From: Candidatus Heimdallarchaeum endolithica
GTDB taxonomy: Archaea; Asgardarchaeota; Heimdallarchaeia; Heimdallarchaeales; Heimdallarchaeaceae
NCBI GenBank assembly: GCA_021513715.1
Contig: CP084167.1
Span: forward strand, 576,001-640,000
Reading direction: 5' to 3'
Length of the DNA stretch: 64,000 bases
Shown here: positions 25,011 through 45,259 of the stretch, in pieces
Layout: each line of letters begins with the position of its first letter
How positions within the stretch are numbered: the first letter of the stretch is position 1
The notes under the pieces: generated by a model
What the model was told of the DNA's origin: nothing
The model's database searches: none
Seen by the model: the letters and a program-made list of their open reading frames with translations, nothing else
Translations under genes and position numbers: made by a program

Positions 25011-25298
25011 CTATCCTCCTGCAACAAAGGGAAGAATAGATATTTCTGTTTGCTTATTTTCTATAAAATAGGTTGACAGTTCTTCATGATGAATTGTTCT
25101 GTTATTTATCATTATATTATAAAAAGAGTGTATTTTTTTTCCAGAAAATAGAAGATCATCTAATTCTGGATGCTTTATAACCAATTTTTCTATTGCTTCT
25201 AGAATGGTTGTCTTTTCACTATCTAATTCAACTACTACTTCTGCCTTATTTTCCAAAGCTGATCTTAATTGACCAAATAAGCGAAAAACAATTCTCAT
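25011..25298 (-). CDS. moaD: MoaD/ThiS/SAMP ubiquitin-like sulfur carrier
   Basis: 95 aa, LFGQLR at the N-terminus, C-terminal ILPFVAGG di-glycine. Confidence 0.85.
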   Translation of the reverse strand: MRIVFRLFGQLRSALENKAEVVVELDSEKTTILEAIEKLVIKHPELDDLLFSGKKIHSFYNIMINNRTIHHEELSTYFIENKQTEISILPFVAGG

Positions 25299-25364
25299 TC
25301 TTTATCCTCTTATAAGATAAATATAAATTTGAGAGATAAAATTGTTATGATTTGTCAAATTCTT

Positions 25365-25925
25365 TCAAATTGTATTAACTTCAAAGAATTTGACTATATT
25401 CTCAATTAGAGTAATAAAAGCTTTTTCTACATTTTCTCCAGTTTTTGCTGAAGTTTCTATATATGGAACTTCGAATCCACTCCAATTACTCAAACTTTTA
25501 GCATAATCTGCTGCATATTCATAAGGAACTGAATTGGGTGTTGAAGATCTAAGGTCTGATTTATTTCCTATCAATAACATTGGAACAATTTTGTTTTTGT
25601 TATTCTTTATTATCTCATGTATCCAATTTGGTAATAATTCATATGTTTCTGGTCTCGAAATGTCAAAAACTAATAAAGCACCTGAAGTTCCTCTATAATA
25701 AACTTCTCTAACTGCAGAAAAACGCTGTTGTCCAGCTAAGTCCCATATTTGTAGAGTGTATTCTATATTATTTAGTTGCATCTTCTTTACTGCAAAGTCT
25801 GCACCCACTGTCATGGCATAGCCAGATTCAAAAGTTTCTCCTAAATATCGACGTCTTAATGATGTTTTACCTACTGCTCCTTCACCAAGCAATGAAACTT
25901 TAAAGATTCTCTGCACTTTTTTCAT
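25365..25925 (-). CDS. Rab-like small GTPase
   Basis: GEGAVGKT, TVGADF, WDLAGQ, YYRG, GNKSD, ETSAK; no C-terminal prenylation Cys. Confidence 0.9.
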   Translation of the reverse strand: MKKVQRIFKVSLLGEGAVGKTSLRRRYLGETFESGYAMTVGADFAVKKMQLNNIEYTLQIWDLAGQQRFSAVREVYYRGTSGALLVFDISRPETYELLPNWIHEIIKNNKNKIVPMLLIGNKSDLRSSTPNSVPYEYAADYAKSLSNWSGFEVPYIETSAKTGENVEKAFITLIENIVKFFEVNTI

Positions 25926-32211: not shown

Positions 32212-32622
32212 ATGCAAGAGTCTGCACTTTTTCGATATTTTGACCAATTAGAAAGAACTGACTTGCTATTTATCAATTTCGCATTTCTGATTATTATAAT
32301 TCCAGGACTAATTTTTGGATTGTTAAGTAAAAGCTCATGGATGCTTTATGTAGCTTTGGTCGTACTTTTTTTCTTTGTTTGTTGGAATTGTCTTTATTTC
32401 TATACCAAATTCAAACTAAACAAACAAGAAAAAGAACTTCTTAAAACTATTCCCAGTTTTCCACAACTCGACTTCTGTGATTATTGTGGTAAATCATTAG
32501 AAGATTCAGCTCCTGCAGTGATTGATAGTAATCTAATCATTGTATGCCCTCATTGTGGAAAAGAAAATATAGTTAAATCAGAGGAAGAAATTGAACAGAT
32601 AAATGAAAAAGCAGATTCATAA
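32212..32622 (+). CDS. Small two-TM membrane protein with a C-terminal Zn-ribbon
   Basis: Two hydrophobic helices, then CDYC...CPHC; first ATG at 32212. Confidence 0.65.
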   Translation: MQESALFRYFDQLERTDLLFINFAFLIIIIPGLIFGLLSKSSWMLYVALVVLFFFVCWNCLYFYTKFKLNKQEKELLKTIPSFPQLDFCDYCGKSLEDSAPAVIDSNLIIVCPHCGKENIVKSEEEIEQINEKADS

Positions 32623-32640
32623 TTTAAGGAGATATAACAA

Positions 32641-34329
32641 ATGAAAAAAAAAGCAAAAATACTTTTCTTATTAATTATTTTCTCAAATTTACTTTTTGTT
32701 TTAACAACAAATACAAACAACATTAATGCTTTGAAAGAGCCTATTAATAGTAATTCTAGTGAATTTAGGGCATATAGTTTCGCTGTTCCTTATATGTATA
32801 CTGATGTTACTATTAAAAAAGATGGCTCAATAGATATTTCTTATACCATTAATTTTACAAATTTTATTTTTGGAGACACTATCGACATTGTTGACATAGG
32901 CTTTCCTAATAAACATTACAAGCTTAGAAGTGTTCAAGCTTGGATAGATGGTTATGAGATTACTGACATTAGAAAAAGTGAGTACATTAGTATAGGAGTA
33001 GAGATACATTTAGGTAGTCATTCTATTTTACCTGGTGAGAGCGCAATATTGGAAGTTAAAGGAAATAATCCTAAAATGGTCTTTAAAGATGATACAAAAG
33101 AGAATTTTGCTAGTTGTGTTTTTAGGCAAACTTGGTTTAGTTCGCAATTTGCTTTTGGAGAAACAGAAAGAAGAGTAAGATTTTATTTTCCTGAAGACTT
33201 AACTAATATAAGTGAAGTAGAGAAAAGAGTGTCAGATTATAGTGTTGATTTCTCAAGAGCAAGTAATTATGTAGAGTTTTCCAAATCAAGCACTCCTTTT
33301 GATAATGACTTTTATGTGGGTGTAGGAATACCTTCAAAATATGTTGATAGAATGTATAGCGAATTTTGGGTTTACCATTTTGGTGAACTTGTTGCTCAAG
33401 TATTATTCTTCTTAATGTTCTTTGGTTTCTTTGCTTTTTTCTGCTATGGTTTTTGTATTTTACCAATAAAAGAACAAAAGAGATACCTTCCGCCTACAAT
33501 AAAATCCACTGGTGGAGCTGTGAGAATGGGGTTAAAACCCTCTGAAGCAGCTATTATACTAGAAAAACCACTTACTCTTGTTGCTTCTTTAGTTATTTAT
33601 GAAATGATGTCTGAAGGATTGATCTCTGTCAAGCAGAAGGATCCATTAAGATTTAAGGTAGAAATTTCTTCCAAAGAGAAATCTAACTTACCTACTTATC
33701 AGAAACATATAATAAATGGAATAAAAAAGAGAGAAAAATCTGATCTAAAATGGGAAAGAGGAAGTGTTTCTGGTGCTCGCCCTCATGATCCTTTTGACCA
33801 AGATTATATCAGAAAAGCTCTCTTATCTTTAATAAAAGAAACTACCAAGAAAATGAAAGGATTCAACCTGAAGAAAACAAAGAAATACTATAATGAATTA
33901 ATTGAAAGAGCTTGGATAGATATGAAAGAAGAACGCCCAGAACTAGAAAACGCTTTTCTATGGATAATGATTGATGAAGACTATGATGATAGAATGAAGG
34001 AATATTACGATGATTATTACTACCCTTCATGGTATGTTTATCACTATCACACACACTATTATGGCAGAAATAGAGGAGGTTTAGAAAAAGTAGAGGGTAA
34101 ATCAGGATTCAAAAGAACAAAAATTAAAGATAGAGGAAAAATAATTCCTGGACTAGATTTCAAGCGAATACAGAAAAATATAGTAAGAAGTCCCAAAAAA
34201 CTGCTCTCTTCTGTAAAATCTAAAACTAGACCTATATCTAGGAGTTCAGGTAGAAGTGGAGGAGGGGGCGGAGGAGGTTGTGCTTGCGCTTGCGCTTGTG
34301 CTTGTGCTTGCGCTGGAGGAGGACGATAA
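32641..34329 (+). CDS. DUF2207-like single-pass membrane protein with a Gly7-(Cys-Ala)6-GGGR C-terminal tail
   Basis: Signal peptide, DVTIKKDGSIDISY ectodomain start, TM near residues 250-275, L.PSEAAIIL, tail SGGGGGGGCACACACACACAGGGR; AAGGAG SD. Confidence 0.75.
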   Translation: MKKKAKILFLLIIFSNLLFVLTTNTNNINALKEPINSNSSEFRAYSFAVPYMYTDVTIKKDGSIDISYTINFTNFIFGDTIDIVDIGFPNKHYKLRSVQAWIDGYEITDIRKSEYISIGVEIHLGSHSILPGESAILEVKGNNPKMVFKDDTKENFASCVFRQTWFSSQFAFGETERRVRFYFPEDLTNISEVEKRVSDYSVDFSRASNYVEFSKSSTPFDNDFYVGVGIPSKYVDRMYSEFWVYHFGELVAQVLFFLMFFGFFAFFCYGFCILPIKEQKRYLPPTIKSTGGAVRMGLKPSEAAIILEKPLTLVASLVIYEMMSEGLISVKQKDPLRFKVEISSKEKSNLPTYQKHIINGIKKREKSDLKWERGSVSGARPHDPFDQDYIRKALLSLIKETTKKMKGFNLKKTKKYYNELIERAWIDMKEERPELENAFLWIMIDEDYDDRMKEYYDDYYYPSWYVYHYHTHYYGRNRGGLEKVEGKSGFKRTKIKDRGKIIPGLDFKRIQKNIVRSPKKLLSSVKSKTRPISRSSGRSGGGGGGGCACACACACACAGGGR

Positions 34330-34330
34330 A

Positions 34331-35644
34331 ATGTCAAAAGAAGAACAGAAAAAGATGTTTCATCTAAGAAACGAAGAAACCTTTACTAGGATGCATTTAA
34401 GAAAAGAAAAGAAAGGACAAGGAATATTGATTGTTAATGCTAATAGAATTTTTCATCTAAACAAAACAGCTACTGAATTCATTGAATATATAATAAAAGA
34501 GATGAAAGATGAAGAGATAATAAGAAAAATGGTCAATAAATACAATGTCCACGAATCAGAAATAAGGACAGATCTGATGAATCTAAAAATAGCAATAGAA
34601 GATATTGTTAATAAACCAGATATCGACCCTGTTCAAGAATTATTTGACGAAGACATGGAAATAGAGAGAATGATTTTTTCTGCCCCATTAAGAATGGACT
34701 TGGCTATAACCTACAAATGTAATAACAAATGTGTTAAATGTTATGTTGAAAAAAAAAGAGAAATAAAAGAATTAAAAACAGAAGAATGGAAAAAAGTCTT
34801 AGATAAATTGTGGGATATTGGAGTCCCACATGTAACATTTACAGGAGGAGAACCTACAACAAGAAAAGATTTGGTAAAATTAGTAGAGTATGCAGAAGAT
34901 ATAGGTATAGTAACAGGATTAATAACTAATGGAAGAAATCTGAAAGACAAAAATCTGGTAGATGAACTTGTAGCAGCAGGAATAGACCATTTCCAAATAA
35001 CGATCGAAAGCCACTTGCCAGAAGTACATGATAAATTAACGGGAGTAAAAGGCTCGTGGGAAGAAACAGTAGAAGGAATAAAAAATGTTGTACCCACACC
35101 AGTATTTATCATGACAAACACAACTCTAGTCCCAGAAAATATTAATGAAATAGATAAAACAATAGAATTCCTAGCTTCTCTAGGTATAGATCACTTTGCA
35201 GCAAACGGAATAATAAAAGCTGGAGGAGGAAAAAATGACTCACTAGACTTAACAGTAGAAGAACTAAACAAAACCCTAGATACAATCATGAAGAAAGCAG
35301 AAGAAATGAAAATGAGATTCCTATGGTACTCACCAACAAGATATTGTGAATTTAATCCAGTAAAAAAAGGACTAGGAGTAAAACAATGTACAGCAGCTAA
35401 CATAGCTATGGCAATAGAGCCAGATGGACAAGTAATACCATGCCAAAGCTACTTTGATACACTAGGAAACATATTGACCACACCATGGAAAAAAATATGG
35501 AACCATAAAACAGCAAAAAGAATAAGAAAAAGAAAATACTTACCCCAAGAATGTAAAAAATGCCCAGAAAAAGAAATATGTGGAGGAGGATGCCCTCTAA
35601 ATTATGAAGCGCCATCAACAGTCTGTAGAGATGCTCTATCTTAA
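34331..35644 (+). CDS. PqqD/RRE-domain radical SAM/SPASM peptide or protein maturase
   Basis: N-terminal PqqD-like LN.TA..I...I...MV.KY.V....I..DL; CNNKCVKC; FTGGEP; ITNG; SPASM C..(15)..PC and CKKC.....CGGGCP; ATG at 34331. Confidence 0.88.
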   Translation: MSKEEQKKMFHLRNEETFTRMHLRKEKKGQGILIVNANRIFHLNKTATEFIEYIIKEMKDEEIIRKMVNKYNVHESEIRTDLMNLKIAIEDIVNKPDIDPVQELFDEDMEIERMIFSAPLRMDLAITYKCNNKCVKCYVEKKREIKELKTEEWKKVLDKLWDIGVPHVTFTGGEPTTRKDLVKLVEYAEDIGIVTGLITNGRNLKDKNLVDELVAAGIDHFQITIESHLPEVHDKLTGVKGSWEETVEGIKNVVPTPVFIMTNTTLVPENINEIDKTIEFLASLGIDHFAANGIIKAGGGKNDSLDLTVEELNKTLDTIMKKAEEMKMRFLWYSPTRYCEFNPVKKGLGVKQCTAANIAMAIEPDGQVIPCQSYFDTLGNILTTPWKKIWNHKTAKRIRKRKYLPQECKKCPEKEICGGGCPLNYEAPSTVCRDALS

Positions 35645-35844: not shown

Positions 35845-38800
35845 ATGAGTAAATTGTCCAACAAAAAAATAGAGATTATAATCTTAATTTTTCTTCTTAT
35901 TACAATTAAAATCTACCAAGTAGAGCAAATAAAAATCAATAATCAATTTGATGAAGAAAAAAAAGATAATAATAGGAAACATTATACCACAATACATCAT
36001 TCTATTGAAATTACTTCAGATGACAATTTTTCTTCATTTCCTGGTTCTGGTACTAAAGATGACCCATATATTATAAAAGACTATATTATTTATTCATCTT
36101 CCAAATATGGGATATATATTTTTAATACCACAAAATATTTTATTGTACAAAATTGTAAAGTAAAATCTTCATATCTTAGTGGTCTTTATATATCTCATAT
36201 TAAAAATGGAACAGGAAAAATACTAGACAATGAATTCAACAGCGATAATTATGGAATATATGTTGACTCTTCAAATAATCTCTCAATTATTAATAACATC
36301 TATTTAGCTAAATATGGAATATATATGCATAGTTCAGCAAATAATTATATAGCCAAAAATGAATTTTACTCTTTATTTAAAGGAATCAACATTATATATT
36401 CCAATAACATAACAATAGAAAACAATACTTATTTTGAAAGCACACAAATTTCCATACGTCTACTTTATTCTAGTAATAATACAATAATAAATAACACTTT
36501 TACAAAAGTAAAAAAAGCTATTTATATTTATTATTCATTTAACAATTTTCTAACAGGTAATAATTTTACTAATAATGAAGTTGCAATTAATCTCATTTAT
36601 TCTGATAAGAATTTTATCTTTAATAATTCCTTTCAACTTAGTGAAATTAATTCAATAAATTTGGAATCTTCATTAAATAATTCAATAATAAACAATTCAT
36701 GTTTTTATTGTGATAACAATTCTATTTATCTAATTAACTCAGAATATAATTTAATATCAAACAATAGTTGTTACAATTGTAATAGCGCTATTTATCTTCA
36801 TAATTCTAGTTACAATCTACTAGAACACAATAGATTGATAAATAATTTGAAATATGGACTTCTTTTAATATCTTCAAATAACAATGATGTTAAAACTAAT
36901 ATTATAGTAAAAAATTCTTTTTATGGAATAAATCTATTATATTCAAAAAATAATACTATTTGGTTAAATTATATAGTATTTAACAATGTTGCAGTATCAA
37001 ATTCAGTTCAAGTTAACGATAATAATGGATTAAATTATTGGTATGAACCCATAATTAAAAAAGGGAACTATTGGAATGAATTCACTTATGGAAAAAATTA
37101 TTCAATCAACCCAGGACTTACGTCAGACTTATACCCACAAAATTCTACAGATACAGATGATGATGGCTTACAAGATGTAATTGAAATAAACTGTTTCTTT
37201 ACAAACATATTTAGCAATGATACAGACAGTGATGGAATAATAGATTATTGGGAAATTGATAATAATTTTAATCCATTAATTAATGATTCCTCACTTGACC
37301 TAGATAGAGATAATTTATCTAACTTGGCAGAGTATCAAAATAATACAGACCCTCATGATCCAGATACAGATGATGATGATTTAAGAGATGGAGACGAAGT
37401 TAACATTTATCTTACTGATCCTCTTGACTCTGATACTGACGATGATGGTATGCCTGATGGTTGGGAAGTAGAAAATTGTTTAAATCCTCTAGAAAATGAT
37501 AGTTACAATGATCCTGATGATGATAGTTTAGTAAATCTAGAAGAATATAACTATTCAACAAACCCAACTAATAATGACACTGATGGAGATGGTTTATCAG
37601 ACTATAACGAGATATATAGTTATAATAGTGACCCCACAGATATAGACACAGATAATGATGGTTTGTTTGATGGACAAGAAGTTAATTTGTTTTTAACTAA
37701 CCCTTTGGATTCTGACACTGATAATGACAAAATAGATGATTATTCTGAAGTATATTCGTTTTTTACTGACCCAAACTGTAATGACACTGATAATGATGGT
37801 TTGCTTGATGGTCAAGAAGCATATATCTTCTTTTCAGATCCAAATAGTAATGATACAGACCTTGATGGCTTATCAGATTATGAAGAAATAATTTATAATA
37901 CTAATCTAAAAAATAGCGATACAGACTTCGACGGACTTTCAGATTATGAAGAAATAAAAGTTTATTTTACTAATCCAAGAAGTAAAGACACTGATAGAGA
38001 TGGAAGGTCTGATGGTTGGGAAATAGAAAATGGATATAATCCGCTAATGAAAAATGTTTTCTTTGTAAAGAAGAGTATCTTGATGATTCTATTTTATATT
38101 AACATTTCTTATTCTATTCTAATCTTTCTACTCTTGCTATATATTCTCACAATAAAAAAAATTCTAATACAATTTTTTCAATGGCAAGAAGAACATTATT
38201 TAGAATTAAATAAATTATTAATTCAATATGAAAAAGCTACAAAAATTGTTTTTCTTTCTGATTTTATAAAGGATTTAACACCAGTGATTAACCAAACTAA
38301 AGAAGAAGTAAAAAGTTACCCTAAATTAAGTTTAATAAAAAAGATAAATAATACGAAGCAAGCCTATAAACTTTGGAAAAAGAAAATAGACATAAATAAA
38401 TATGAAAAAATGTACAATGATTTTTATTTTAGTGTTACACAATTAAATTTTTCTGAAATCAAGATAATCGATAATAATAATGATATAAGTGTTGAAAATG
38501 AGAAATTTGATACACTCTTAAAAGAAATAATAAATGAAAGAAGAATGTTAAAACAATATAAAAATCTAATAACTGACATGAAGTTTATTTTTTCATTTTT
38601 ACCTCGTTTTTTGGATGAGAACAAGAAGTTATTTTTTAAACAAATAAATGAAGAAATTGAAGAAAAGTTTGAAAATGCAAATTCTTTACTTATTAAAACT
38701 CTGAAATTATCAATAATTAAAGGAAATAAATTGTTAGAAAAAGAAGAACAATTGTCTAAACAAATAATTAAATCACTCTCAAAAGAAATTTTGCATCGTT

Positions 38801-39225
38801 TTGCTATTTATGAGAATGAATTGAAAGAATGGAAGAAAAGAAGTGAAAATGTCTTATCAGAATTATTGGAGGAAGATCTAAAAGAAGTGGAAGATTTGTT
38901 TCAAGAAGAGAAAAACATGCTCAAGGAGATAATAGTTCAGAATGAAATCAAATATAAAGAAGTGAAAAGAGTAAAAGTACTTATAGATGTATTATCAATT
39001 TATAGTGAAATCCCTTTAATTAAGCTACAACGGAAACTTGGTTTTTCAAAATTAGAAGATTTGGAGAAATGGTTAATAGAACTAAGTTCGTTTCTATCAA
39101 TAAAAATAGAAGGAGATAAACTAATTATCTCAGAGAAAGCTACAAAAGAATTAACACAATCAATAGATGAATTAATTAAGAGATTCACTGAATGGGAAAA
39201 AACAGGAGAAGGAAAAAAAACATAG
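35845..39225 (+). CDS. Array member 1: NosD-like beta-helix, Asp-rich Ca-binding repeats, TM, coiled coil, type I conserved tail
   Basis: FPGSGTKDDPYII, Asn-ladder repeats, GNYW, many DTDxDG repeats, TM near residues 745-770, [20 protein letters not shown]. Confidence 0.8.
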   Translation: MSKLSNKKIEIIILIFLLITIKIYQVEQIKINNQFDEEKKDNNRKHYTTIHHSIEITSDDNFSSFPGSGTKDDPYIIKDYIIYSSSKYGIYIFNTTKYFIVQNCKVKSSYLSGLYISHIKNGTGKILDNEFNSDNYGIYVDSSNNLSIINNIYLAKYGIYMHSSANNYIAKNEFYSLFKGINIIYSNNITIENNTYFESTQISIRLLYSSNNTIINNTFTKVKKAIYIYYSFNNFLTGNNFTNNEVAINLIYSDKNFIFNNSFQLSEINSINLESSLNNSIINNSCFYCDNNSIYLINSEYNLISNNSCYNCNSAIYLHNSSYNLLEHNRLINNLKYGLLLISSNNNDVKTNIIVKNSFYGINLLYSKNNTIWLNYIVFNNVAVSNSVQVNDNNGLNYWYEPIIKKGNYWNEFTYGKNYSINPGLTSDLYPQNSTDTDDDGLQDVIEINCFFTNIFSNDTDSDGIIDYWEIDNNFNPLINDSSLDLDRDNLSNLAEYQNNTDPHDPDTDDDDLRDGDEVNIYLTDPLDSDTDDDGMPDGWEVENCLNPLENDSYNDPDDDSLVNLEEYNYSTNPTNNDTDGDGLSDYNEIYSYNSDPTDIDTDNDGLFDGQEVNLFLTNPLDSDTDNDKIDDYSEVYSFFTDPNCNDTDNDGLLDGQEAYIFFSDPNSNDTDLDGLSDYEEIIYNTNLKNSDTDFDGLSDYEEIKVYFTNPRSKDTDRDGRSDGWEIENGYNPLMKNVFFVKKSILMILFYINISYSILIFLLLLYILTIKKILIQFFQWQEEHYLELNKLLIQYEKATKIVFLSDFIKDLTPVINQTKEEVKSYPKLSLIKKINNTKQAYKLWKKKIDINKYEKMYNDFYFSVTQLNFSEIKIIDNNNDISVENEKFDTLLKEIINERRMLKQYKNLITDMKFIFSFLPRFLDENKKLFFKQINEEIEEKFENANSLLIKTLKLSIIKGNKLLEKEEQLSKQIIKSLSKEILHRFAIYENELKEWKKRSENVLSELLEEDLKEVEDLFQEEKNMLKEIIVQNEIKYKEVKRVKVLIDVLSIYSEIPLIKLQRKLGFSKLEDLEKWLIELSSFLSIKIEGDKLIISEKATKELTQSIDELIKRFTEWEKTGEGKKT

Positions 39226-39261
39226 CATTAATATCAACTTTAGAAGTTAAAATTTTTGAGA

Positions 39262-41820
39262 TTACTTCTTCTTTCCTTTTCCTGTACGTTCCCACTCACT
39301 AAATTGTTTGAGTAAATCGTCAATAGCTGTAGTCATATCTTCAGAAACCAATACGCCTTCAAATTGTAAATCGAAGATTACTTCTTCTCCTTCAATCCTA
39401 TTTGGTACATCTTTAGAATAAGCATACAACCACAATTTCATAACTTCTTTATCTTGGAAGCCCAACAAGGGAGAAAGTTTGTTCAAACTTATTTTGTTGT
39501 AAACAGAACTAATTTTCTTAAGCCTATCAAGTAGCATATTATTATGTTTATTAACTTTGATTATTTCAGCTAATTCAGAAAAAATATTGTTATAGTTTTT
39601 TAAGACTTCCTGGAATATAGCTAACTTTTCAGAAGCTAAATCATTAACTTTTGACCATAAAGGTTCAGAGGAAATTTGATTATCAAAAGGTGCAAGAGTT
39701 TCTTCTCTAAAAACAATAACGAGATCTAGGAAAGAAATTAATTTCTCATAACTTATTATTAAATGTTTAAACTTTTTTTCTGACCAATTATGTATTAATT
39801 TTGTTGATACTTTTTTAGTATATTCCTCTAAATTTGCAGGATTAATTAGATCAACTAAAGAAATCACTTCAGTTTGAAGTTCTGTGTTTACGAAAGTAAT
39901 TATTTCATTATAGAGCTTGTTAAATTGTTCTTTTTTATTCTTTACTATTCTTCTTGCATTAATCTGAATAAAAAGTAAATCTTCAAGGAATATTTTTAAC
40001 TTTTCAAAAAAGCTTCTTATTTCGTTTACTGAAGAAACAAATATTATTAATGACGAAATACCTGCAAAAGTTTCCTCGTAAAATTCAATTAACTTAGGTT
40101 TTAAATTAATTACTTTTTTCATTTTCTTCCTTATCTTTACTCTTTTTCTAATTTTATAAATTAACAATAGTAAAAGAATAATAAATAAAGTAAATACAAT
40201 AATATAACCTATTACAATTGAATTAAGGTATACATTCTTTCTTAAAGGATCTTTTCCATTTTCTATTTCCCAACTATCAGACCTTCCATCTCTATCAGTG
40301 TCTTTACTTCTTGGATTAGTAAGATAAATATTTATTTCTTCATAATCTGATAAACCATCATTATCAGTATCAGGGTCTAAAGGGTCAGTAAGGTAAATGA
40401 TAACTTCATCTCCATCTATTAAACCATCATCGTCAGAATCGGTGTTATTAGCAAAAGTGCCAAGATTAAACTCTTTAAGATTTGATAAACCATCACCATC
40501 AAGATCTTCATAAGCATCATCCGCTAGAGGGTTCAAATTACTACATACTTCCCAACCGTCAAGCATACCATCATTATCTGTGTCAGGGTCTAAAGGGTCA
40601 GTAAGGTAAATGATAACTTCGTCTCCATCTATTAAACCATCATCGTCAGTATCAGAATCCAAAGGGGAGGTATTGTTGGTATATTCTTCTAAATTAGTCA
40701 AATTGTCATTATCAGGGTCTAAAGCAGAGTCATCAGTAAGAGGATCTAAACCATTGTCTTCTTCCCATTTATCAGACATATTATCTTGGTCTAGGTCTAC
40801 ATGCATAGGATAAGGATCAAAATTATCAGCTGTACCATCAATTGCATATACTCCTGTTCCACTCCAATCATACCAATAGTTACCTGTTGTACCATAATAG
40901 AATCTATTGTCTATTCCGCAATCATATGCCTGAGAATTAGTAGCTTGATTATTTTTAATAAAGATATTTTTTACAATAGTATTATTAGAACTATCCTGAA
41001 GATAAACTCCATAGGAGCAACTATTTGTGACAATATTTGAAGTAAACGTATTATTTTTAGAATTTGAAGAAAGACAAAATATTCCATATCGATCGTTAAA
41101 TGAAATATTATTATAAATAAAAATATTATTTGAACTAAAAGAAAGCAGTATACCATCATAAATACTATTGGTTACATTATTGGAAGTAAAAGTATTACTA
41201 AAACTAGAAGAAAGAGATATACCACCAATACTGCTATTTATTATTGTGTTAGAAGCAAAAGTATTCCAAGAACTAGAAGAAAGAAAAAATCCATAGGAAC
41301 TACTGTTTGTTATTGTGTTAGAAATAAAAGTATTATTAAAACTAGAAGAAAGAAATATTCCTCTATTATAATTACTTATAGTATTATTCGTTACTATTAT
41401 GGTTCCACTTACAACAGAATCAATATAAATACCAGAAAATGTTGAAATCCTGCCACTAAGATAACAATCACGAATTATAATATATTTAGTTGTACTAGTT
41501 ATCTTAATACCATCAGCACTAGAGCTAGAAATAATGTAGTTTTTTATAATATAAGGGTCATCTTTAGTACCTGAACCAGGAAAAACTGTTAGATCACTGT
41601 CAGAAGTAATAGAAATAGGAGCATGAATGATATAAGAATTCTTCATATTATTATTCTTAATTTTATTAATTATTTGCAGTGATGAAAATACCTTAGTGTT
41701 TGTATGTACATTTACTTCATTTTTTTTGTGAATAGAATAAGAGATTGAAATGTTTAAACATATTATTAATATAAACAATAAACATTTACTCAAATTTTTT
41801 AGTTTTCCCATCTTATTCAT
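39262..41820 (-). CDS. Array member 2 (type II tail)
   Basis: Same architecture; tail [14 protein letters not shown]...KLWLYAYSKDVPNRIEG...[20 protein letters not shown]. Confidence 0.8.
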   Translation of the reverse strand: MNKMGKLKNLSKCLLFILIICLNISISYSIHKKNEVNVHTNTKVFSSLQIINKIKNNNMKNSYIIHAPISITSDSDLTVFPGSGTKDDPYIIKNYIISSSSADGIKITSTTKYIIIRDCYLSGRISTFSGIYIDSVVSGTIIVTNNTISNYNRGIFLSSSFNNTFISNTITNSSSYGFFLSSSSWNTFASNTIINSSIGGISLSSSFSNTFTSNNVTNSIYDGILLSFSSNNIFIYNNISFNDRYGIFCLSSNSKNNTFTSNIVTNSCSYGVYLQDSSNNTIVKNIFIKNNQATNSQAYDCGIDNRFYYGTTGNYWYDWSGTGVYAIDGTADNFDPYPMHVDLDQDNMSDKWEEDNGLDPLTDDSALDPDNDNLTNLEEYTNNTSPLDSDTDDDGLIDGDEVIIYLTDPLDPDTDNDGMLDGWEVCSNLNPLADDAYEDLDGDGLSNLKEFNLGTFANNTDSDDDGLIDGDEVIIYLTDPLDPDTDNDGLSDYEEINIYLTNPRSKDTDRDGRSDSWEIENGKDPLRKNVYLNSIVIGYIIVFTLFIILLLLLIYKIRKRVKIRKKMKKVINLKPKLIEFYEETFAGISSLIIFVSSVNEIRSFFEKLKIFLEDLLFIQINARRIVKNKKEQFNKLYNEIITFVNTELQTEVISLVDLINPANLEEYTKKVSTKLIHNWSEKKFKHLIISYEKLISFLDLVIVFREETLAPFDNQISSEPLWSKVNDLASEKLAIFQEVLKNYNNIFSELAEIIKVNKHNNMLLDRLKKISSVYNKISLNKLSPLLGFQDKEVMKLWLYAYSKDVPNRIEGEEVIFDLQFEGVLVSEDMTTAIDDLLKQFSEWERTGKGKKK

Positions 41821-42073
41821 CTCTGAACTAATAGTGACAATACAACTTGTTTAAAGGGAAAGAGCTTGGCTGTTTATAATATTTAATAAAGAATAATTAT
41901 CTAATTAACTTTTCGTTTATCTTTAGCAAGATTTTTCACTTGTTTATTAAAAATCAAGTAACTATGAGTTCAAAAGAGATGAAATAATTAATAAACTATA
42001 AGAAGTGTTAGGAAGAATCTAATATTTTTTTGTAAAGAAAAATAACCTTTAAGATATCTTTTTGACTTTTTAC

Positions 42074-45000
42074 TTATTTTTTCTTCCCCTTTCCTGTACG
42101 TTCCCACTCACTAAACTTGTCTATTAGTTCATCAATAGACTGAGTAATCTCTTCAGTGATTTTTTCAACAATAATTAATTTTTCTCCTTCAATTCGAATA
42201 GATAAAATAGAGCCAAGTTCAACCAACCATAATTCAAGATCATTAAGTTCTTCAAAACCTAGTTTTTCCTGCAAAGTAACTAAAGGTATTTCAGAACTAG
42301 TAGATAGAACCTTGAAGAATTCTTTAGCCCTCTTTATTTCAACCTCTCGAGAATCAAAATAATTCATTTTTTCTTCCACTTTTTCTTTTAATCCATAGTA
42401 TTGTTCTATTCGGTTGCTAGTCAACTTTTCTACTGTCTCTGTGTTCATAACCTTACTATAATTTTCTTTCCAGTTAGCTAATTTTTCTTCAAACTCTCTA
42501 AAATATAACTCACTTTCTGTTGTTTTTCCTTTTAGAGAATACACAAACAGATTATCTATTTCTTTTACTAGCTCTTCTCCTTTTTTATCCAATAATATTA
42601 AAGGATAAAGATGAATAAGGTCTAGAACTTCTTGTCTCTTATTTTCTATTTCTTGTGATTCCTCTAACAAATCTTTTTTTTCATCATTTGTTAATCTGTC
42701 AGAAATTACTTTAAGTTTAGATTGGAAAAAATCACGAAAAGCATCTGTTATCTCTGATAACTTTTTTACTTTCTCGAGGTTAAAATTAATGTTTAAGTCT
42801 TGTTGATTAATTATTTCTTTCTCTATTTCAAAAATTTTCTCAAAAGTTTTTTTCTGATGAATCTTCATTTGATTAATAAGAGCATTCAATTCTTCTTTTG
42901 AAAATGACTTGTCTACATCATTAGTTTCATTGATTTTGGAAGAAAGTAAATCATTTCTTATATCTATTTTTTCTATCTCTTCAATATAGGAAAAATACTC
43001 ATCACTTACTTTTTTGAATTCTAAGGTGATTTTGTTTATCTTACTAACATATTCATCTAAATCTATTTTTTGATAATTATTTTTTTGTACATAATTATTG
43101 ATTTTTTGTAAGTCTGAAAGTAAGAATTTTTTCCTTTTCAACACTTTTTCTATTAATAAAGTATATTCATCAGCTATTTTTTTCTTTAATAAACCTCTAT
43201 AATCTAACAACTGGCTAATAAAAATGTCAATTTCTTCTTTTACTTTATCTAATTCAATAGAATTTTTCTTTCCTATAATAATCCTAAATAATTTAAATTC
43301 AGATTGATAAAAAGCAATTATTTTATTAATATAATTAATATTTTTAACACTTTCTTGAAAATCCACAGTTGATAAAGGTTGAAGAAGATATTCATCTATT
43401 TTTTCCTTAAATTTTTCAAATTCCAAAAATTGATCTTGTAATTTATTCTTTAATTTTAAAAGTTTTTCACTCTGTTTTTTCTTAATTAGTAAAATAATTG
43501 TTATTATGCTTCCTATAACTAAAAAACTCAATAGACAAGAAAGCACAATTTTAATTTTTTTTGCTCGAGGATTGCTTAATTTGTTTAATGGATCACTTCC
43601 ATAAATGATTATTTCTTCATAGTCATTAAATTTATCATCATCTGTGTCATTTTTTGTTGGATCTGTGTGGTAGGCATATATTTCTTCATAATCTGTTAAA
43701 CCATCTCCATCAGTATCAGGATTCATGGGGTTAGTTAGAAAAGTTATAACTTCTTGATAATCTGTTAAACCATCATTATCTGAATCTTTTTTATAAGGAA
43801 GAGAATGGAAAACTTTTACTTCTTGATAATAACCTAATTTGTCATCATCAAAATCTTCTTCTCTTATACATCCCCCAAAAGTAACTTCGTCTCCATCATT
43901 AAGGCCATCTCCATCAGTATCAGGATTAAGAGGATAAGCAAACCATTGATATTCTTCTAAATTAGTTAAACCATCTCCATCAGAATCTGCCTTGGGATCA
44001 TCCAAATTATAGACAATTTCCCAACCATCGTCCATTCCATCATTGTCATCATCATTCTCAACAGATACTATTCTTCTTGGAAAAATATCACCAATTTCAG
44101 CACCATATATAGAATAAAAATTGGTAGTACCATCCCAGTCTTCCCACAAATTACCAATCAGTAAAGTAGGAGAATACCAGAAGCTATTAGTTCCATAATC
44201 TTCGTTTAGATCCTTAATTTTCATAAAAGTATTATTGTAGACAATGTTGTATTCTCCTCTTTCACCTATTCTTACGCCCCCTAAACCTGTTCCACAAAAG
44301 AGATTATTATAAACCAAACTGTTACTTACTTCGAAAGCATAACAAATAGCGAAGTTAGTTGAATTGTATATTTTGTTATCATTAATAACAACGTTATTAC
44401 ATCTTTCTAAATTTATTCCATCAGTTGTTGCTCCTTTTATCAAATTATTAGAGAATACAATTTCATTATTGCCACTAGACCATATACCTGGAGCCCAATC
44501 ACTAGTTACATTTTCTAATGTGTTAAAAGTAATAGTAATCTCATTATTTGTATCAAGTCCAATGTTTCCTTCACCATTAAAAATGCATGTGTTTTTAGTA
44601 ACTGTAACATTAGATGATTCAGAAACCAAAATACCAAAACGAGAGTTATTAGCAGAATAATTATTATATACCAAGCTATCTCCTGTTTGGTGAATTAATA
44701 TTCCATCATAATTATAAAGAAGAGTACAATTCTCTACTATTGTACTCCCTGCTCTTGATTCAGAAGCAATCCCAAATCCAAAACCTTGAACAAAACAATT
44801 TCGAATAACTACTGAAGAACTAACATAACTAATAATAATACCACAACCTTCTTTGTTAGTTGCTTCTGTTGAAATCTTATAGTTTTCAATTATGTATGGA
44901 TCATCCTCTGTTCCTGAACCAGGACAACCAAGTTTTGCAAAGTCTTCTTCTCTAGTGATATCTATTGGTGAATGAATAATATAATTAGTCTTTTGGCTAT

Positions 45001-45259
45001 TATTTTTTTCAAAAATTATTTTTTGATAAGAACTATTATGATTTATTTGCCTATTGTTTAGAAATGAATTATGTTCATCAATTGAGAGAGAACTAACAAA
45101 TACTTTTTCAATTTCAGATTTATTGCTACTAAAATTAGAAAACTTGTCATAGTCATGACTATTTATTAAGTAAAAAGATGGAAGGACAAAAAGAAAAATA
45201 ATTAAAGAAAAAACAATATTTCTTCTGAAATTTAGCGATATATTGTTTAATATTTTCAT
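42074..45259 (-). CDS. Array member 3 (type I tail), close paralog of 57561..60752
   Basis: CPGSGTEDDPYII, beta-helix, DxDxDG repeats, [22 protein letters not shown]. Confidence 0.8.
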   Translation of the reverse strand: MKILNNISLNFRRNIVFSLIIFLFVLPSFYLINSHDYDKFSNFSSNKSEIEKVFVSSLSIDEHNSFLNNRQINHNSSYQKIIFEKNNSQKTNYIIHSPIDITREEDFAKLGCPGSGTEDDPYIIENYKISTEATNKEGCGIIISYVSSSVVIRNCFVQGFGFGIASESRAGSTIVENCTLLYNYDGILIHQTGDSLVYNNYSANNSRFGILVSESSNVTVTKNTCIFNGEGNIGLDTNNEITITFNTLENVTSDWAPGIWSSGNNEIVFSNNLIKGATTDGINLERCNNVVINDNKIYNSTNFAICYAFEVSNSLVYNNLFCGTGLGGVRIGERGEYNIVYNNTFMKIKDLNEDYGTNSFWYSPTLLIGNLWEDWDGTTNFYSIYGAEIGDIFPRRIVSVENDDDNDGMDDGWEIVYNLDDPKADSDGDGLTNLEEYQWFAYPLNPDTDGDGLNDGDEVTFGGCIREEDFDDDKLGYYQEVKVFHSLPYKKDSDNDGLTDYQEVITFLTNPMNPDTDGDGLTDYEEIYAYHTDPTKNDTDDDKFNDYEEIIIYGSDPLNKLSNPRAKKIKIVLSCLLSFLVIGSIITIILLIKKKQSEKLLKLKNKLQDQFLEFEKFKEKIDEYLLQPLSTVDFQESVKNINYINKIIAFYQSEFKLFRIIIGKKNSIELDKVKEEIDIFISQLLDYRGLLKKKIADEYTLLIEKVLKRKKFLLSDLQKINNYVQKNNYQKIDLDEYVSKINKITLEFKKVSDEYFSYIEEIEKIDIRNDLLSSKINETNDVDKSFSKEELNALINQMKIHQKKTFEKIFEIEKEIINQQDLNINFNLEKVKKLSEITDAFRDFFQSKLKVISDRLTNDEKKDLLEESQEIENKRQEVLDLIHLYPLILLDKKGEELVKEIDNLFVYSLKGKTTESELYFREFEEKLANWKENYSKVMNTETVEKLTSNRIEQYYGLKEKVEEKMNYFDSREVEIKRAKEFFKVLSTSSEIPLVTLQEKLGFEELNDLELWLVELGSILSIRIEGEKLIIVEKITEEITQSIDELIDKFSEWERTGKGKKK

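What the first reader, a model, noticed from the sequence alone, without database searches (positions are those of the whole stretch)
32212..35644. RiPP-like modification of a membrane protein: (Cys-Ala)6 tail coupled to an RRE-radical SAM/SPASM enzyme
Seen: a three-gene operon. The 562-aa membrane protein ends in a Ser/Gly linker plus CACACACACACAGGGR (34279-34326, mixed TGT/TGC codons). Its stop lies 1 nt before the rSAM ATG, and the final Gly codons GGAGGAGG double as that gene's SD. No short precursor ORF was seen nearby. Established: PqqD/RRE plus SPASM enzymes bind a leader and form Cys thioether crosslinks (sacti/ranthipeptides) or other radical modifications. Inference: the substrate is the predicted cytoplasmic tail of the membrane protein itself, giving a membrane-tethered modified peptide or metal-binding comb, with the Zn-ribbon membrane protein as partner. 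I know of no characterised example.
Basis: partly seen in the sequence, partly recalled or inferred. Interest (0 to 1): 0.8.

Follow-up and report, generated by a model that had tools for sequence, protein, structure and literature searches.

The report
Radical-SAM partner of Cys-Ala membrane tail
A membrane protein of an Asgard archaeon ends in an almost invariant run of alternating cysteines and alanines and nearly always occurs with a peptide-tailoring radical-SAM enzyme whose subfamily changes when the tail changes, which points to an untested chemical modification made on the tail of a whole membrane protein.

Summary
Observation confirmed in a Heimdallarchaeum genome. The (Cys-Ala)n-GGGR tail ends 118 of 120 top homologues; its last 12 residues are invariant while the body is about 35% identical. 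In 201 Asgard genomes, all 37 with the tail have this RRE-radical SAM-SPASM clade, even where the genes are unlinked. In metagenomes, 33 of 34 judgeable loci have it. A homologous carrier with a (Cys-His-Ser-Ala)n tail pairs with a sister enzyme clade (31 of 34 genomes, no cross-over); hybrid tails link the two. Six active-site-proximal residues resemble the sactisynthases StsB and SkfB, not CteB. Best reading: the enzyme modifies the cytoplasmic tail (about 0.7), most likely with Cys thioethers (about 0.45). No chemistry is shown, and the SPASM cysteines differ from the CteB/CrpC pattern. Corrections: GGGR is conserved as protein, not just as an SD; the Zn-ribbon gene is a loose accessory; a methyltransferase, 62 kb away here, is the commoner neighbour. 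Precedents are QhpD and CrpC/CrpA (2026), both soluble substrates. The scan found this system before on other DNA. I found no paper describing it.

The parts
32212..32622 (+). Small membrane protein with a C-terminal Zn ribbon (CxxC...CxxC), 136 aa; probable accessory, loosely linked
   Evidence: Weak Zn-ribbon Pfam hits. 17-21% identical to a family found next to the carrier in 38 loci. In most family relatives it stays with the luciferase-like gene, not the carrier.
32641..34329 (+). Carrier: DUF2207-like single-pass membrane protein, 562 aa (signal 3-26, beta-sandwich ectodomain about 45-240, TM 247-278, cytoplasmic helical domain, disordered tail)
   Evidence: AF2 model pLDDT 84.6; hydropathy. 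Ectodomain fold matches ribophorin I (Z 14.7) and aminopeptidase N-terminal domains. DUF2207_C below cut-off; Atlas neighbours carry DUF2207 in 20-88% of members.
34234..34278 (+). Ser/Arg/Gly-rich linker ahead of the core (approximate start)
   Evidence: Sequence; composition kept but sequence variable in homologues; pLDDT below 50 from residue 542.
34279..34326 (+). (Cys-Ala)6-GGGR core, Cys547-Arg562; proposed modification target
   Evidence: Last 12 residues invariant in an 85-sequence alignment versus about 0.58 column conservation in the body; synonymous codons vary freely.
34315..34322 (+). GGAGGAGG, SD-like site for the enzyme gene, inside the last Gly codons
   Evidence: Sequence; function as a ribosome-binding site is inferred; not the reason GGGR is conserved.
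34331..35644 (+). RRE-radical SAM-SPASM enzyme, 437 aa: RRE about 19-93; CxxxCxxC 130/134/137; SPASM Cys 339, 353, 371, 408, 411, 417, 421 (432 variable)
   Evidence: Pfam PqqD, Radical_SAM and SPASM over cut-off; no NCBIfam equivalog passes; AF2 pLDDT 86.5 with three-strand, three-helix RRE; best structural matches SkfB, SuiB, CteB, PqqE; Cys conservation.

Best explanation
The 437-aa enzyme is a dedicated maturase whose substrate is the cytoplasmic C-terminal tail of the neighbouring DUF2207-like membrane protein. Shown by sequence: an intact RRE, a SAM-binding cluster motif and a SPASM domain; an invariant, disordered Cys-Ala core behind a single TM; tight genomic coupling; tail type tracking enzyme clade. 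Inferred: the enzyme docks on the carrier's cytoplasmic side, the 5'-deoxyadenosyl radical abstracts H from Ala or Gly in the core, and Cys sulfurs are joined to those carbons as sulfur-to-alpha-carbon thioethers (sactionines). The product would be a rigid, membrane-tethered cross-linked tail, perhaps a nested hairpin around the Ala-Gly break found in most homologues, with some Cys left free for metal. Odds: about 0.7 that the enzyme covalently modifies the tail, about 0.45 that the bond is a thioether. A class I methyltransferase may add a second modification. The physiological role is not established; metal or redox handling at the inner membrane face is my leading guess.
For: Tail in 118/120 top homologues, and the two exceptions are partial sequences. 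Among 139 further 50%-identity representatives, 119 carry the tail and 8 carry Cys variants; the other 12 look truncated. Asgard sample: 37/37 genomes with the tail and 41/41 with the carrier have the clade-A enzyme; none of 118 genomes lacking both enzyme clades has the CA tail. In one family carrier and enzyme are unlinked yet co-retained. Metagenomes: 100/120 tail loci and 33/34 with enough flank hold the enzyme. A homologous carrier (hhalign probability 99.2) with a (CHSA)n tail pairs with a sister clade: 31 of 34 such genomes, no cross-over. All 7 such contigs fetched have the enzyme within two genes. Tail types map to enzyme branches with SH-aLRT 100. Bacillota carriers lack the whole cytoplasmic domain but keep the tail and an enzyme neighbour. 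The CHSA tail weakly matches Haft's Cys-x-x-x radical-SAM target repeat (PF27846, TIGR04117). [quoted passage not shown] Precedent for protein substrates: CrpC/CrpA and QhpD/QhpC (PMC13692751).
Against: No chemistry or expression data. By alignment the first auxiliary cluster appears to have four protein Cys (339, 353, 371, 421), whereas CteB, PapB and CrpC have three and use the open iron to bind substrate Cys; the eighth Cys is present in only 23 of 61 type I enzymes, so any open site would be elsewhere. No leader-like segment is common to all carrier types. Nine of 19 genomes of one family have the enzyme but no detected carrier; they are 72-89% complete and carriers in that family often break at contig ends. 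One locus with long flanks lacks the enzyme (L131). Cys-x-Cys and Cys-His motifs are also classic unmodified metal sites. Sampled genomes are related, so counts are not independent.
Confidence: 0.62

Rival explanations
1. The enzyme modifies the tail, but not by thioether cross-linking: for example epimerisation of alternate residues, Cys oxidation to a thioaldehyde or formylglycine (anSME-like), heterocycle formation, or His-Ala C-C links in the CHSA form.
For: Apparent four-Cys first auxiliary cluster, as in SuiB (SuiB ligands from my own knowledge). By sequence PqqE and SuiB, which make C-C bonds, are close to SkfB in score. The strict two-residue periodicity would suit alternating chemistry.
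Against: Active-site-proximal residues resemble alpha-carbon thioether synthases more than PqqE (S-S-I-S-H-A) or SuiB (F-L-T-S-I-A). Cys is the element common to all tail types. The YydG epimerase is a distant match (E 2e-4).
Confidence: 0.2
2. The tail stays covalently unmodified and binds a metal or Fe-S cluster; the enzyme loads it, uses it as a sulfur or electron relay, or is simply anchored by it while acting on something else.
For: All tail variants are built of metal ligands (Cys, His) and small residues. A Zn-ribbon protein is often adjacent. Catalytically dead paralogues that keep the RRE occur in many loci, suggesting a binding or scaffolding role.
Against: The active enzyme keeps a complete catalytic motif and an RRE in every main clade. 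Letter-perfect Ala spacers and GGGR exceed what simple metal binding usually needs. Enzyme clade changes with tail sequence.
Confidence: 0.11
3. The carrier is a giant precursor: the modified core is cut off and acts as a free RiPP.
For: A Gly-rich linker precedes the core, and Bacillota tails carry a conserved follower after GGGR.
Against: No protease or exporter recurs in the loci. The carrier's ectodomain is well folded and conserved, including in short Bacillota carriers.
Confidence: 0.07
4. The enzyme has an unrelated substrate (a distant peptide, lipid or small molecule) and the linkage is only co-regulation.
For: Enzyme without a detected carrier in 9 incomplete genomes. A distant small precursor was not excluded genome-wide.
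Against: Co-retention when unlinked, clade-specific tail pairing, and no conserved small ORF nearby.
Confidence: 0.06

Closest known systems
CrpC/CrpA of Methanococcus voltae (TIGR04463; PMC13692751)
   Same: Archaeal RRE-radical SAM-SPASM enzyme shown to install thioethers in the Cys-rich C-terminal repeats of a neighbouring protein-sized substrate.
   Different: CrpA is a 29-kDa protein with a 17-residue repeat (C-x-x-Q/D, ranthionine), and CrpC has a three-Cys AuxI. Here the substrate is a 562-aa membrane protein with a 16-residue Cys-Ala core and no Asp, Glu or Gln acceptor. TIGR04463 is not among the best 25 NCBIfam matches shown.
StsB/StsA and SkfB/SkfA sactipeptide synthases (PMC10288494; PDB 6efn)
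   Same: SkfB is the best structure and sequence match. Active-site-proximal residues are similar. StsA has a CxCxC core linked to Gly alpha-carbons.
   Different: Those substrates are short free peptides. The StsB model scores 107 bits against a cut-off of 625 and SkfB 106 against 300. The CxCxC-x4-GxGxG spacing is absent.
QhpD/QhpC
   Same: RRE-bearing radical SAM enzyme making several thioethers in a protein subunit.
   Different: Small soluble substrate with an N-terminal leader and Cys-Asp/Glu links; no amine dehydrogenase genes recur in these loci.
TIGR04222 membrane proteins with MNIO enzymes (PMC12452194)
   Same: Integral membrane proteins with Ser/Gly/Cys low-complexity C-termini proposed as RiPP-like substrates.
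   Different: Different enzyme class, predicted periplasmic tails, variable sequence, loose linkage (490 of 1372 genomes lack the enzyme), also untested.
Cys-Xaa-Xaa-Xaa repeat radical-SAM targets (TIGR04114/PF27846, TIGR04117)
   Same: Predicted radical-SAM target repeat; the sister CHSA tails match weakly.
   Different: Scores are far below cut-off (14 versus 50 bits); the window's tail has two-residue periodicity and no match.
DUF2207 (PF09972, PF20990; SMU.243 of Streptococcus mutans, PMC10457818)
   Same: Related ectodomain and cytoplasmic domain; some CHSA-type carriers pass the PF09972 cut-off.
   Different: The window's carrier is below cut-off; no Cys core or radical-SAM partner is described for DUF2207.

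Membership tests
Radical SAM/SPASM maturases with RRE | CxxxCxxC radical SAM domain | tested here: met
   C130/C134/C137; PF04055 101 bits over cut-off 29.5
Radical SAM/SPASM maturases with RRE | C-terminal SPASM domain with seven or eight Cys | tested here: met
   PF13186 45.5 bits; seven conserved Cys plus variable C432
Radical SAM/SPASM maturases with RRE | N-terminal RRE (PqqD fold) | tested here: met
   PF05402 24.3 bits versus cut-off 23.4; three strands then three helices in the AF2 model
Sactipeptide synthases (AlbA, SkfB, StsB) | Forms sulfur-to-alpha-carbon thioethers | not testable with these tools
   Needs enzymology and MS
Sactipeptide synthases (AlbA, SkfB, StsB) | Catalytic-site-proximity profile of hairpin sactisynthases | tested here: inconclusive
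   Y-T-I-T-Q-S shares 3 of 6 residues with StsB and 3 of 6 with SkfB, 0 of 6 with CteB; mapping is mine by motif landmarks and the paper's scoring was not reproduced
Sactipeptide synthases (AlbA, SkfB, StsB) | Short leader-core precursor peptide encoded nearby | tested here: not met
   No conserved small Cys-rich ORF in the window or 30 Asgard loci
Sactipeptide synthases (AlbA, SkfB, StsB) | Passes a curated family model | tested here: not met
   StsB 107/625, SkfB 106/300, AlbA 80/850 bits
Ranthipeptide synthases (CteB, PapB, QhpD, CrpC) | Three-Cys AuxI and four-Cys AuxII | tested here: inconclusive
   Extra conserved C339 and often-missing C432 suggest a different arrangement; ligation is inferred from alignment only
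Ranthipeptide synthases (CteB, PapB, QhpD, CrpC) | Side-chain acceptor (Asp, Glu, Gln, Thr, Asn) near the Cys | tested here: not met
   Core holds only Cys, Ala, Gly, Arg; Ala beta-carbon remains a formal possibility
Crp system (TIGR04463) | Enzyme passes TIGR04463 and substrate has C-x-x-Q/D repeats | tested here: not met
   No such repeat in the carrier; model not among the best 25 matches listed
Cys-Xaa-Xaa-Xaa repeat target system (TIGR04117/PF27846) | Four-residue Cys repeat matching the model | tested here: not met
   No match for the window's carrier; sister CHSA carriers score 14 versus cut-off 50
DUF2207 membrane proteins | PF09972 or PF20990 above cut-off | tested here: inconclusive
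   Window carrier PF20990 14.8 versus 33; 7 of 85 homologues hit weakly; one relative passes PF09972; Atlas neighbours carry the family
TIGR04222/MNIO membrane-protein system | TIGR04222 domain and an MNIO neighbour | tested here: not met
   No NCBIfam match for the carrier; the neighbour is a radical SAM enzyme

The most novel reading that the evidence does not exclude
An old and widespread system (Asgard and other archaea, Chloroflexota, Bacillota and more) in which an RRE-radical SAM enzyme cross-links the cytoplasmic tail of a whole single-pass membrane protein. Enzyme and tail co-diversified into Cys-Ala and Cys-His-x-Ala codes with hybrids, assisted in some lineages by dead RRE-bearing paralogues and a methyltransferase. 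The product would be a permanently membrane-tethered polythioether with a new link type (Cys to Ala or Gly) serving as a metal or redox module.
Probability: 0.45. Interest if true: 0.85.

Novelty: new variant of a known kind. Interest (0 to 1): 0.7.

Why it matters
RiPP-type radical-SAM chemistry on whole proteins has very few proven cases (QhpC, CrpA) and, to my knowledge, none on an integral membrane protein. This family is large: 906 clusters at 50% identity score E 1e-10 or better with the carrier profile. The predicted substrate is a 16-19 residue motif that is easy to test. A positive result would give a function to an unannotated enzyme clade and a branch of DUF2207-like proteins. The natural Cys-Ala and Cys-His-x-Ala pairs allow a direct swap test of enzyme specificity.

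Tried and rejected
Co-folding the enzyme with carrier residues 493-562 plus clusters and SAM gave no verdict (score 0.02); it is not used as evidence either way. A DNA microsatellite origin was rejected because synonymous codons vary at every position. Selection of GGGR by the SD overlap was rejected because the motif persists with other codons and without a downstream enzyme gene. No hidden small precursor was found locally; it was not excluded genome-wide. The Zn-ribbon gene as an obligate partner was rejected. The methyltransferase as obligate was rejected: homologues occur in 9 genomes without the system, none was found with this query in CHSA-type Asgard genomes, and it is unlinked here. 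A tail-only protein scan of metagenomes failed for low complexity. The viral collection gave one edge-of-contig hit, so this is not a phage system. Literature searches for the motifs, DUF2207 with radical SAM, TIGR04114 and Asgard SPASM found no description; the library lacks most subscription papers, and the CrpC supplement was not held. The promoter/terminator scan was at chance level. No curated NCBIfam family fits any of the three proteins. The Kyte-Doolittle TM count across homologues was noisy, so cytoplasmic location rests on the window protein's single TM, the basic residues after it, and the short Bacillota carriers.
Full report
Observation. The window comes from a Heimdallarchaeum genome; the enzyme is 95% identical to that of Ca. 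H. aukensis. The three ORFs, the (Cys-Ala)6-GGGR tail at 34279-34326, the one-base gap to the enzyme's ATG and the SD-like Gly codons are as described. The repeat is unique in the genome and far beyond chance. The enzyme passes Pfam cut-offs for PqqD, Radical_SAM and SPASM but no NCBIfam equivalog. Its AlphaFold model has a canonical RRE, and its best structural matches are SkfB, SuiB, CteB and PqqE. The carrier model shows a signal peptide, a beta-sandwich ectodomain, one TM helix, a helical domain and a disordered tail. The tail is therefore inferred to be cytoplasmic, on the same side as the enzyme. The carrier is DUF2207-like but below cut-off.

Conservation of the tail. A search found 3813 homologues. 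Of the best 120, 118 end in the tail and the two exceptions are partial. The common form is (CA)4-G-(CA)3-GGGR. The last 12 residues are invariant in an 85-sequence alignment whose members are mostly 30-37% identical to the query. Among 139 further representatives at 50% identity, 119 carry the tail, 8 carry Cys-rich variants and 12 look truncated. All synonymous codons are used across 157 tails, so selection acts on the protein. This also shows that GGGR is not there for the SD.

Coupling to the enzyme. In 201 Asgard genomes, 50 have the close enzyme clade (A). All 37 genomes with the tail pattern and all 41 with the carrier are among them. In one family the carrier (with a Zn-ribbon gene) and the enzyme (with a methyltransferase) lie in different places yet are both kept. 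Nine genomes of that family have the enzyme with no detected carrier; they are 72-89% complete and carriers there often break at contig ends. Of 120 metagenome loci picked only by the tail's DNA pattern, 100 hold the enzyme, and 33 of 34 with adequate flanks do. These counts include related genomes and are not independent events.

Tail and enzyme vary together. Thirty-three Asgard genomes have a more distant enzyme (clade B, about 33% identical). Next to it lies a homologous carrier (hhalign probability 99.2) ending in (Cys-His-Ser-Ala)n repeats. That tail occurs in 34 genomes, 31 with clade B and none with clade A. It is also widespread in bacteria, and the enzyme lay within two genes in all seven contigs fetched. 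Two archaeal carriers have hybrid tails joining both repeats. In a tree of 131 enzymes, CHSA plus hybrid loci form one branch and the Bacillota form another, each with SH-aLRT 100 (quick method, midpoint root, and shared ancestry contributes). Bacillota carriers have lost the cytoplasmic domain but keep ectodomain, TM, tail and enzyme neighbour. So the tail, not the cytoplasmic domain, is what travels with the enzyme. The CHSA tail weakly matches the Cys-x-x-x radical-SAM target repeat models.

Chemistry. Using the landmarks of Precord et al. [quoted passage not shown] Position 3 is often Asn in homologues; the rest are near-invariant in clade A. This resembles StsB (Y,T,I,S,K,L) and SkfB (Y,T,F,S,Q,L), both alpha-carbon thioether synthases, and not CteB (F,F,T,S,H,Q). 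StsB links a CxCxC core to Gly alpha-carbons. The core here offers only Ala and Gly as acceptors, which fits sactionines. Against this, C339 is conserved in addition to C353, C371 and C421, which suggests a fully ligated first auxiliary cluster. CteB, PapB and CrpC keep an open iron there for substrate Cys. The eighth Cys is present in only 23 of 61 type I enzymes, and Bacillota enzymes lack the second cluster motif. The bond type is therefore open. A nested hairpin turning at the conserved Ala-Gly break, leaving some Cys free, is a speculation that predicts partial rather than complete loss of thiols.

Accessory genes. A two-TM Zn-ribbon family occurs in 38 and a class I methyltransferase in 36 of the loci clustered. 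The window's Zn-ribbon protein is only 17-21% identical to that family. In most relatives it stays beside the luciferase-like gene while the carrier-enzyme cassette is elsewhere, and it occurs in a genome lacking the system. The methyltransferase follows the enzyme in 26 of 30 Asgard loci but lies 62 kb away here. Many loci add a catalytically dead paralogue that keeps the RRE, and one lineage fuses such a paralogue to the carrier. No protease or exporter recurs, which argues against release of a free peptide.

Comparison with what is known. The system looks set to work like QhpD/QhpC and CrpC/CrpA, in which an RRE-radical SAM-SPASM enzyme installs thioethers in a protein (PMC13692751). It is not a member of either: the substrate architecture, the repeat and the acceptor residues differ. 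TIGR04222 membrane proteins with Cys/Gly/Ser tails are a predicted parallel with MNIO enzymes (PMC12452194). No paper in the searchable library describes either tail. Earlier reports of this scan describe both tail types in other genomes. They gave me the StsA and CrpC papers and are not independent support.

Verdict. The feature is real, widespread and undescribed in the papers I could search. It is most likely an enzyme-substrate pair in which a whole membrane protein's cytoplasmic tail is modified (about 0.7), by thioether cross-linking (about 0.45). It is a new variant of a known kind, interest 0.7, and one co-expression and MS experiment could decide it.

Noticed in passing
L075:3493-4725 and 17 similar loci; 7 type III loci such as L135, L082: A second, catalytically dead paralogue of the enzyme lies next to the active one. 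It lacks CxxxCxxC (type I copies also lack all SPASM Cys) but the copy scanned keeps a PqqD/RRE match.
   Followed up: partly
L287:486-3332 (P0450): A 948-aa fusion of a truncated dead paralogue to a full carrier with tail, between an active enzyme and the methyltransferase. Only two near-identical records, so it may be a one-off deletion.
   Followed up: partly
L269:8001-9764, L270:8001-9773 (P0303, P0306): Hybrid tails in Promethearchaeota: (CHSA/CHSN)n followed by a Cys-Ala block and GGGW, beside a clade-B enzyme; the gene between them resembles the N-terminal half of a 924-aa carrier.
   Followed up: partly
L009:5968-8234 and about 40 gut metagenome loci: Bacillota form: the enzyme lacks the CxxC-x5-C motif of the second auxiliary cluster (twitch-like), precedes a short carrier, and the tail continues with a conserved follower AGCSxK(D/N)(F/L)Y.
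   Followed up: partly
window 32773-33360 (carrier ectodomain): Best fold matches are ribophorin I/Ost1 of the eukaryotic oligosaccharyltransferase (Z 14.7, rmsd 3.1, 177 aligned, 8% identity), ahead of aminopeptidase N-terminal domains (Z about 11-12). Shared fold only.
   Followed up: no
G000:C1:673524-674252 (L276:3004-3786), outside the window: Orthologue of the methyltransferase that follows the enzyme in 26 of 30 Asgard loci; displaced about 62 kb in this genus.
   Followed up: partly
L271:3330-4301, L273:10029-11057, L275:10064-11050: An unannotated 320-340 aa multi-TM protein family follows the enzyme in bacterial CHSA-type loci.
   Followed up: no
window 35845-45259: Three large surface proteins with NosD-like beta-helix and TSP3-like repeats follow the operon; the one scanned also has a weak PCI-like C-terminus. 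Not conserved beside the system outside this genus.
   Followed up: no
window 25011-25925: A 95-aa MoaD/ubiquitin-like protein ending in GG lies next to a Rab-like small GTPase (read from sequence).
   Followed up: no
L277-L284: In related Heimdallarchaeaceae the Zn-ribbon orthologue sits between luciferase-like genes and one to three membrane proteins with Cys-rich RING-like C-termini, near a cupin and a methyltransferase paralogue.
   Followed up: no
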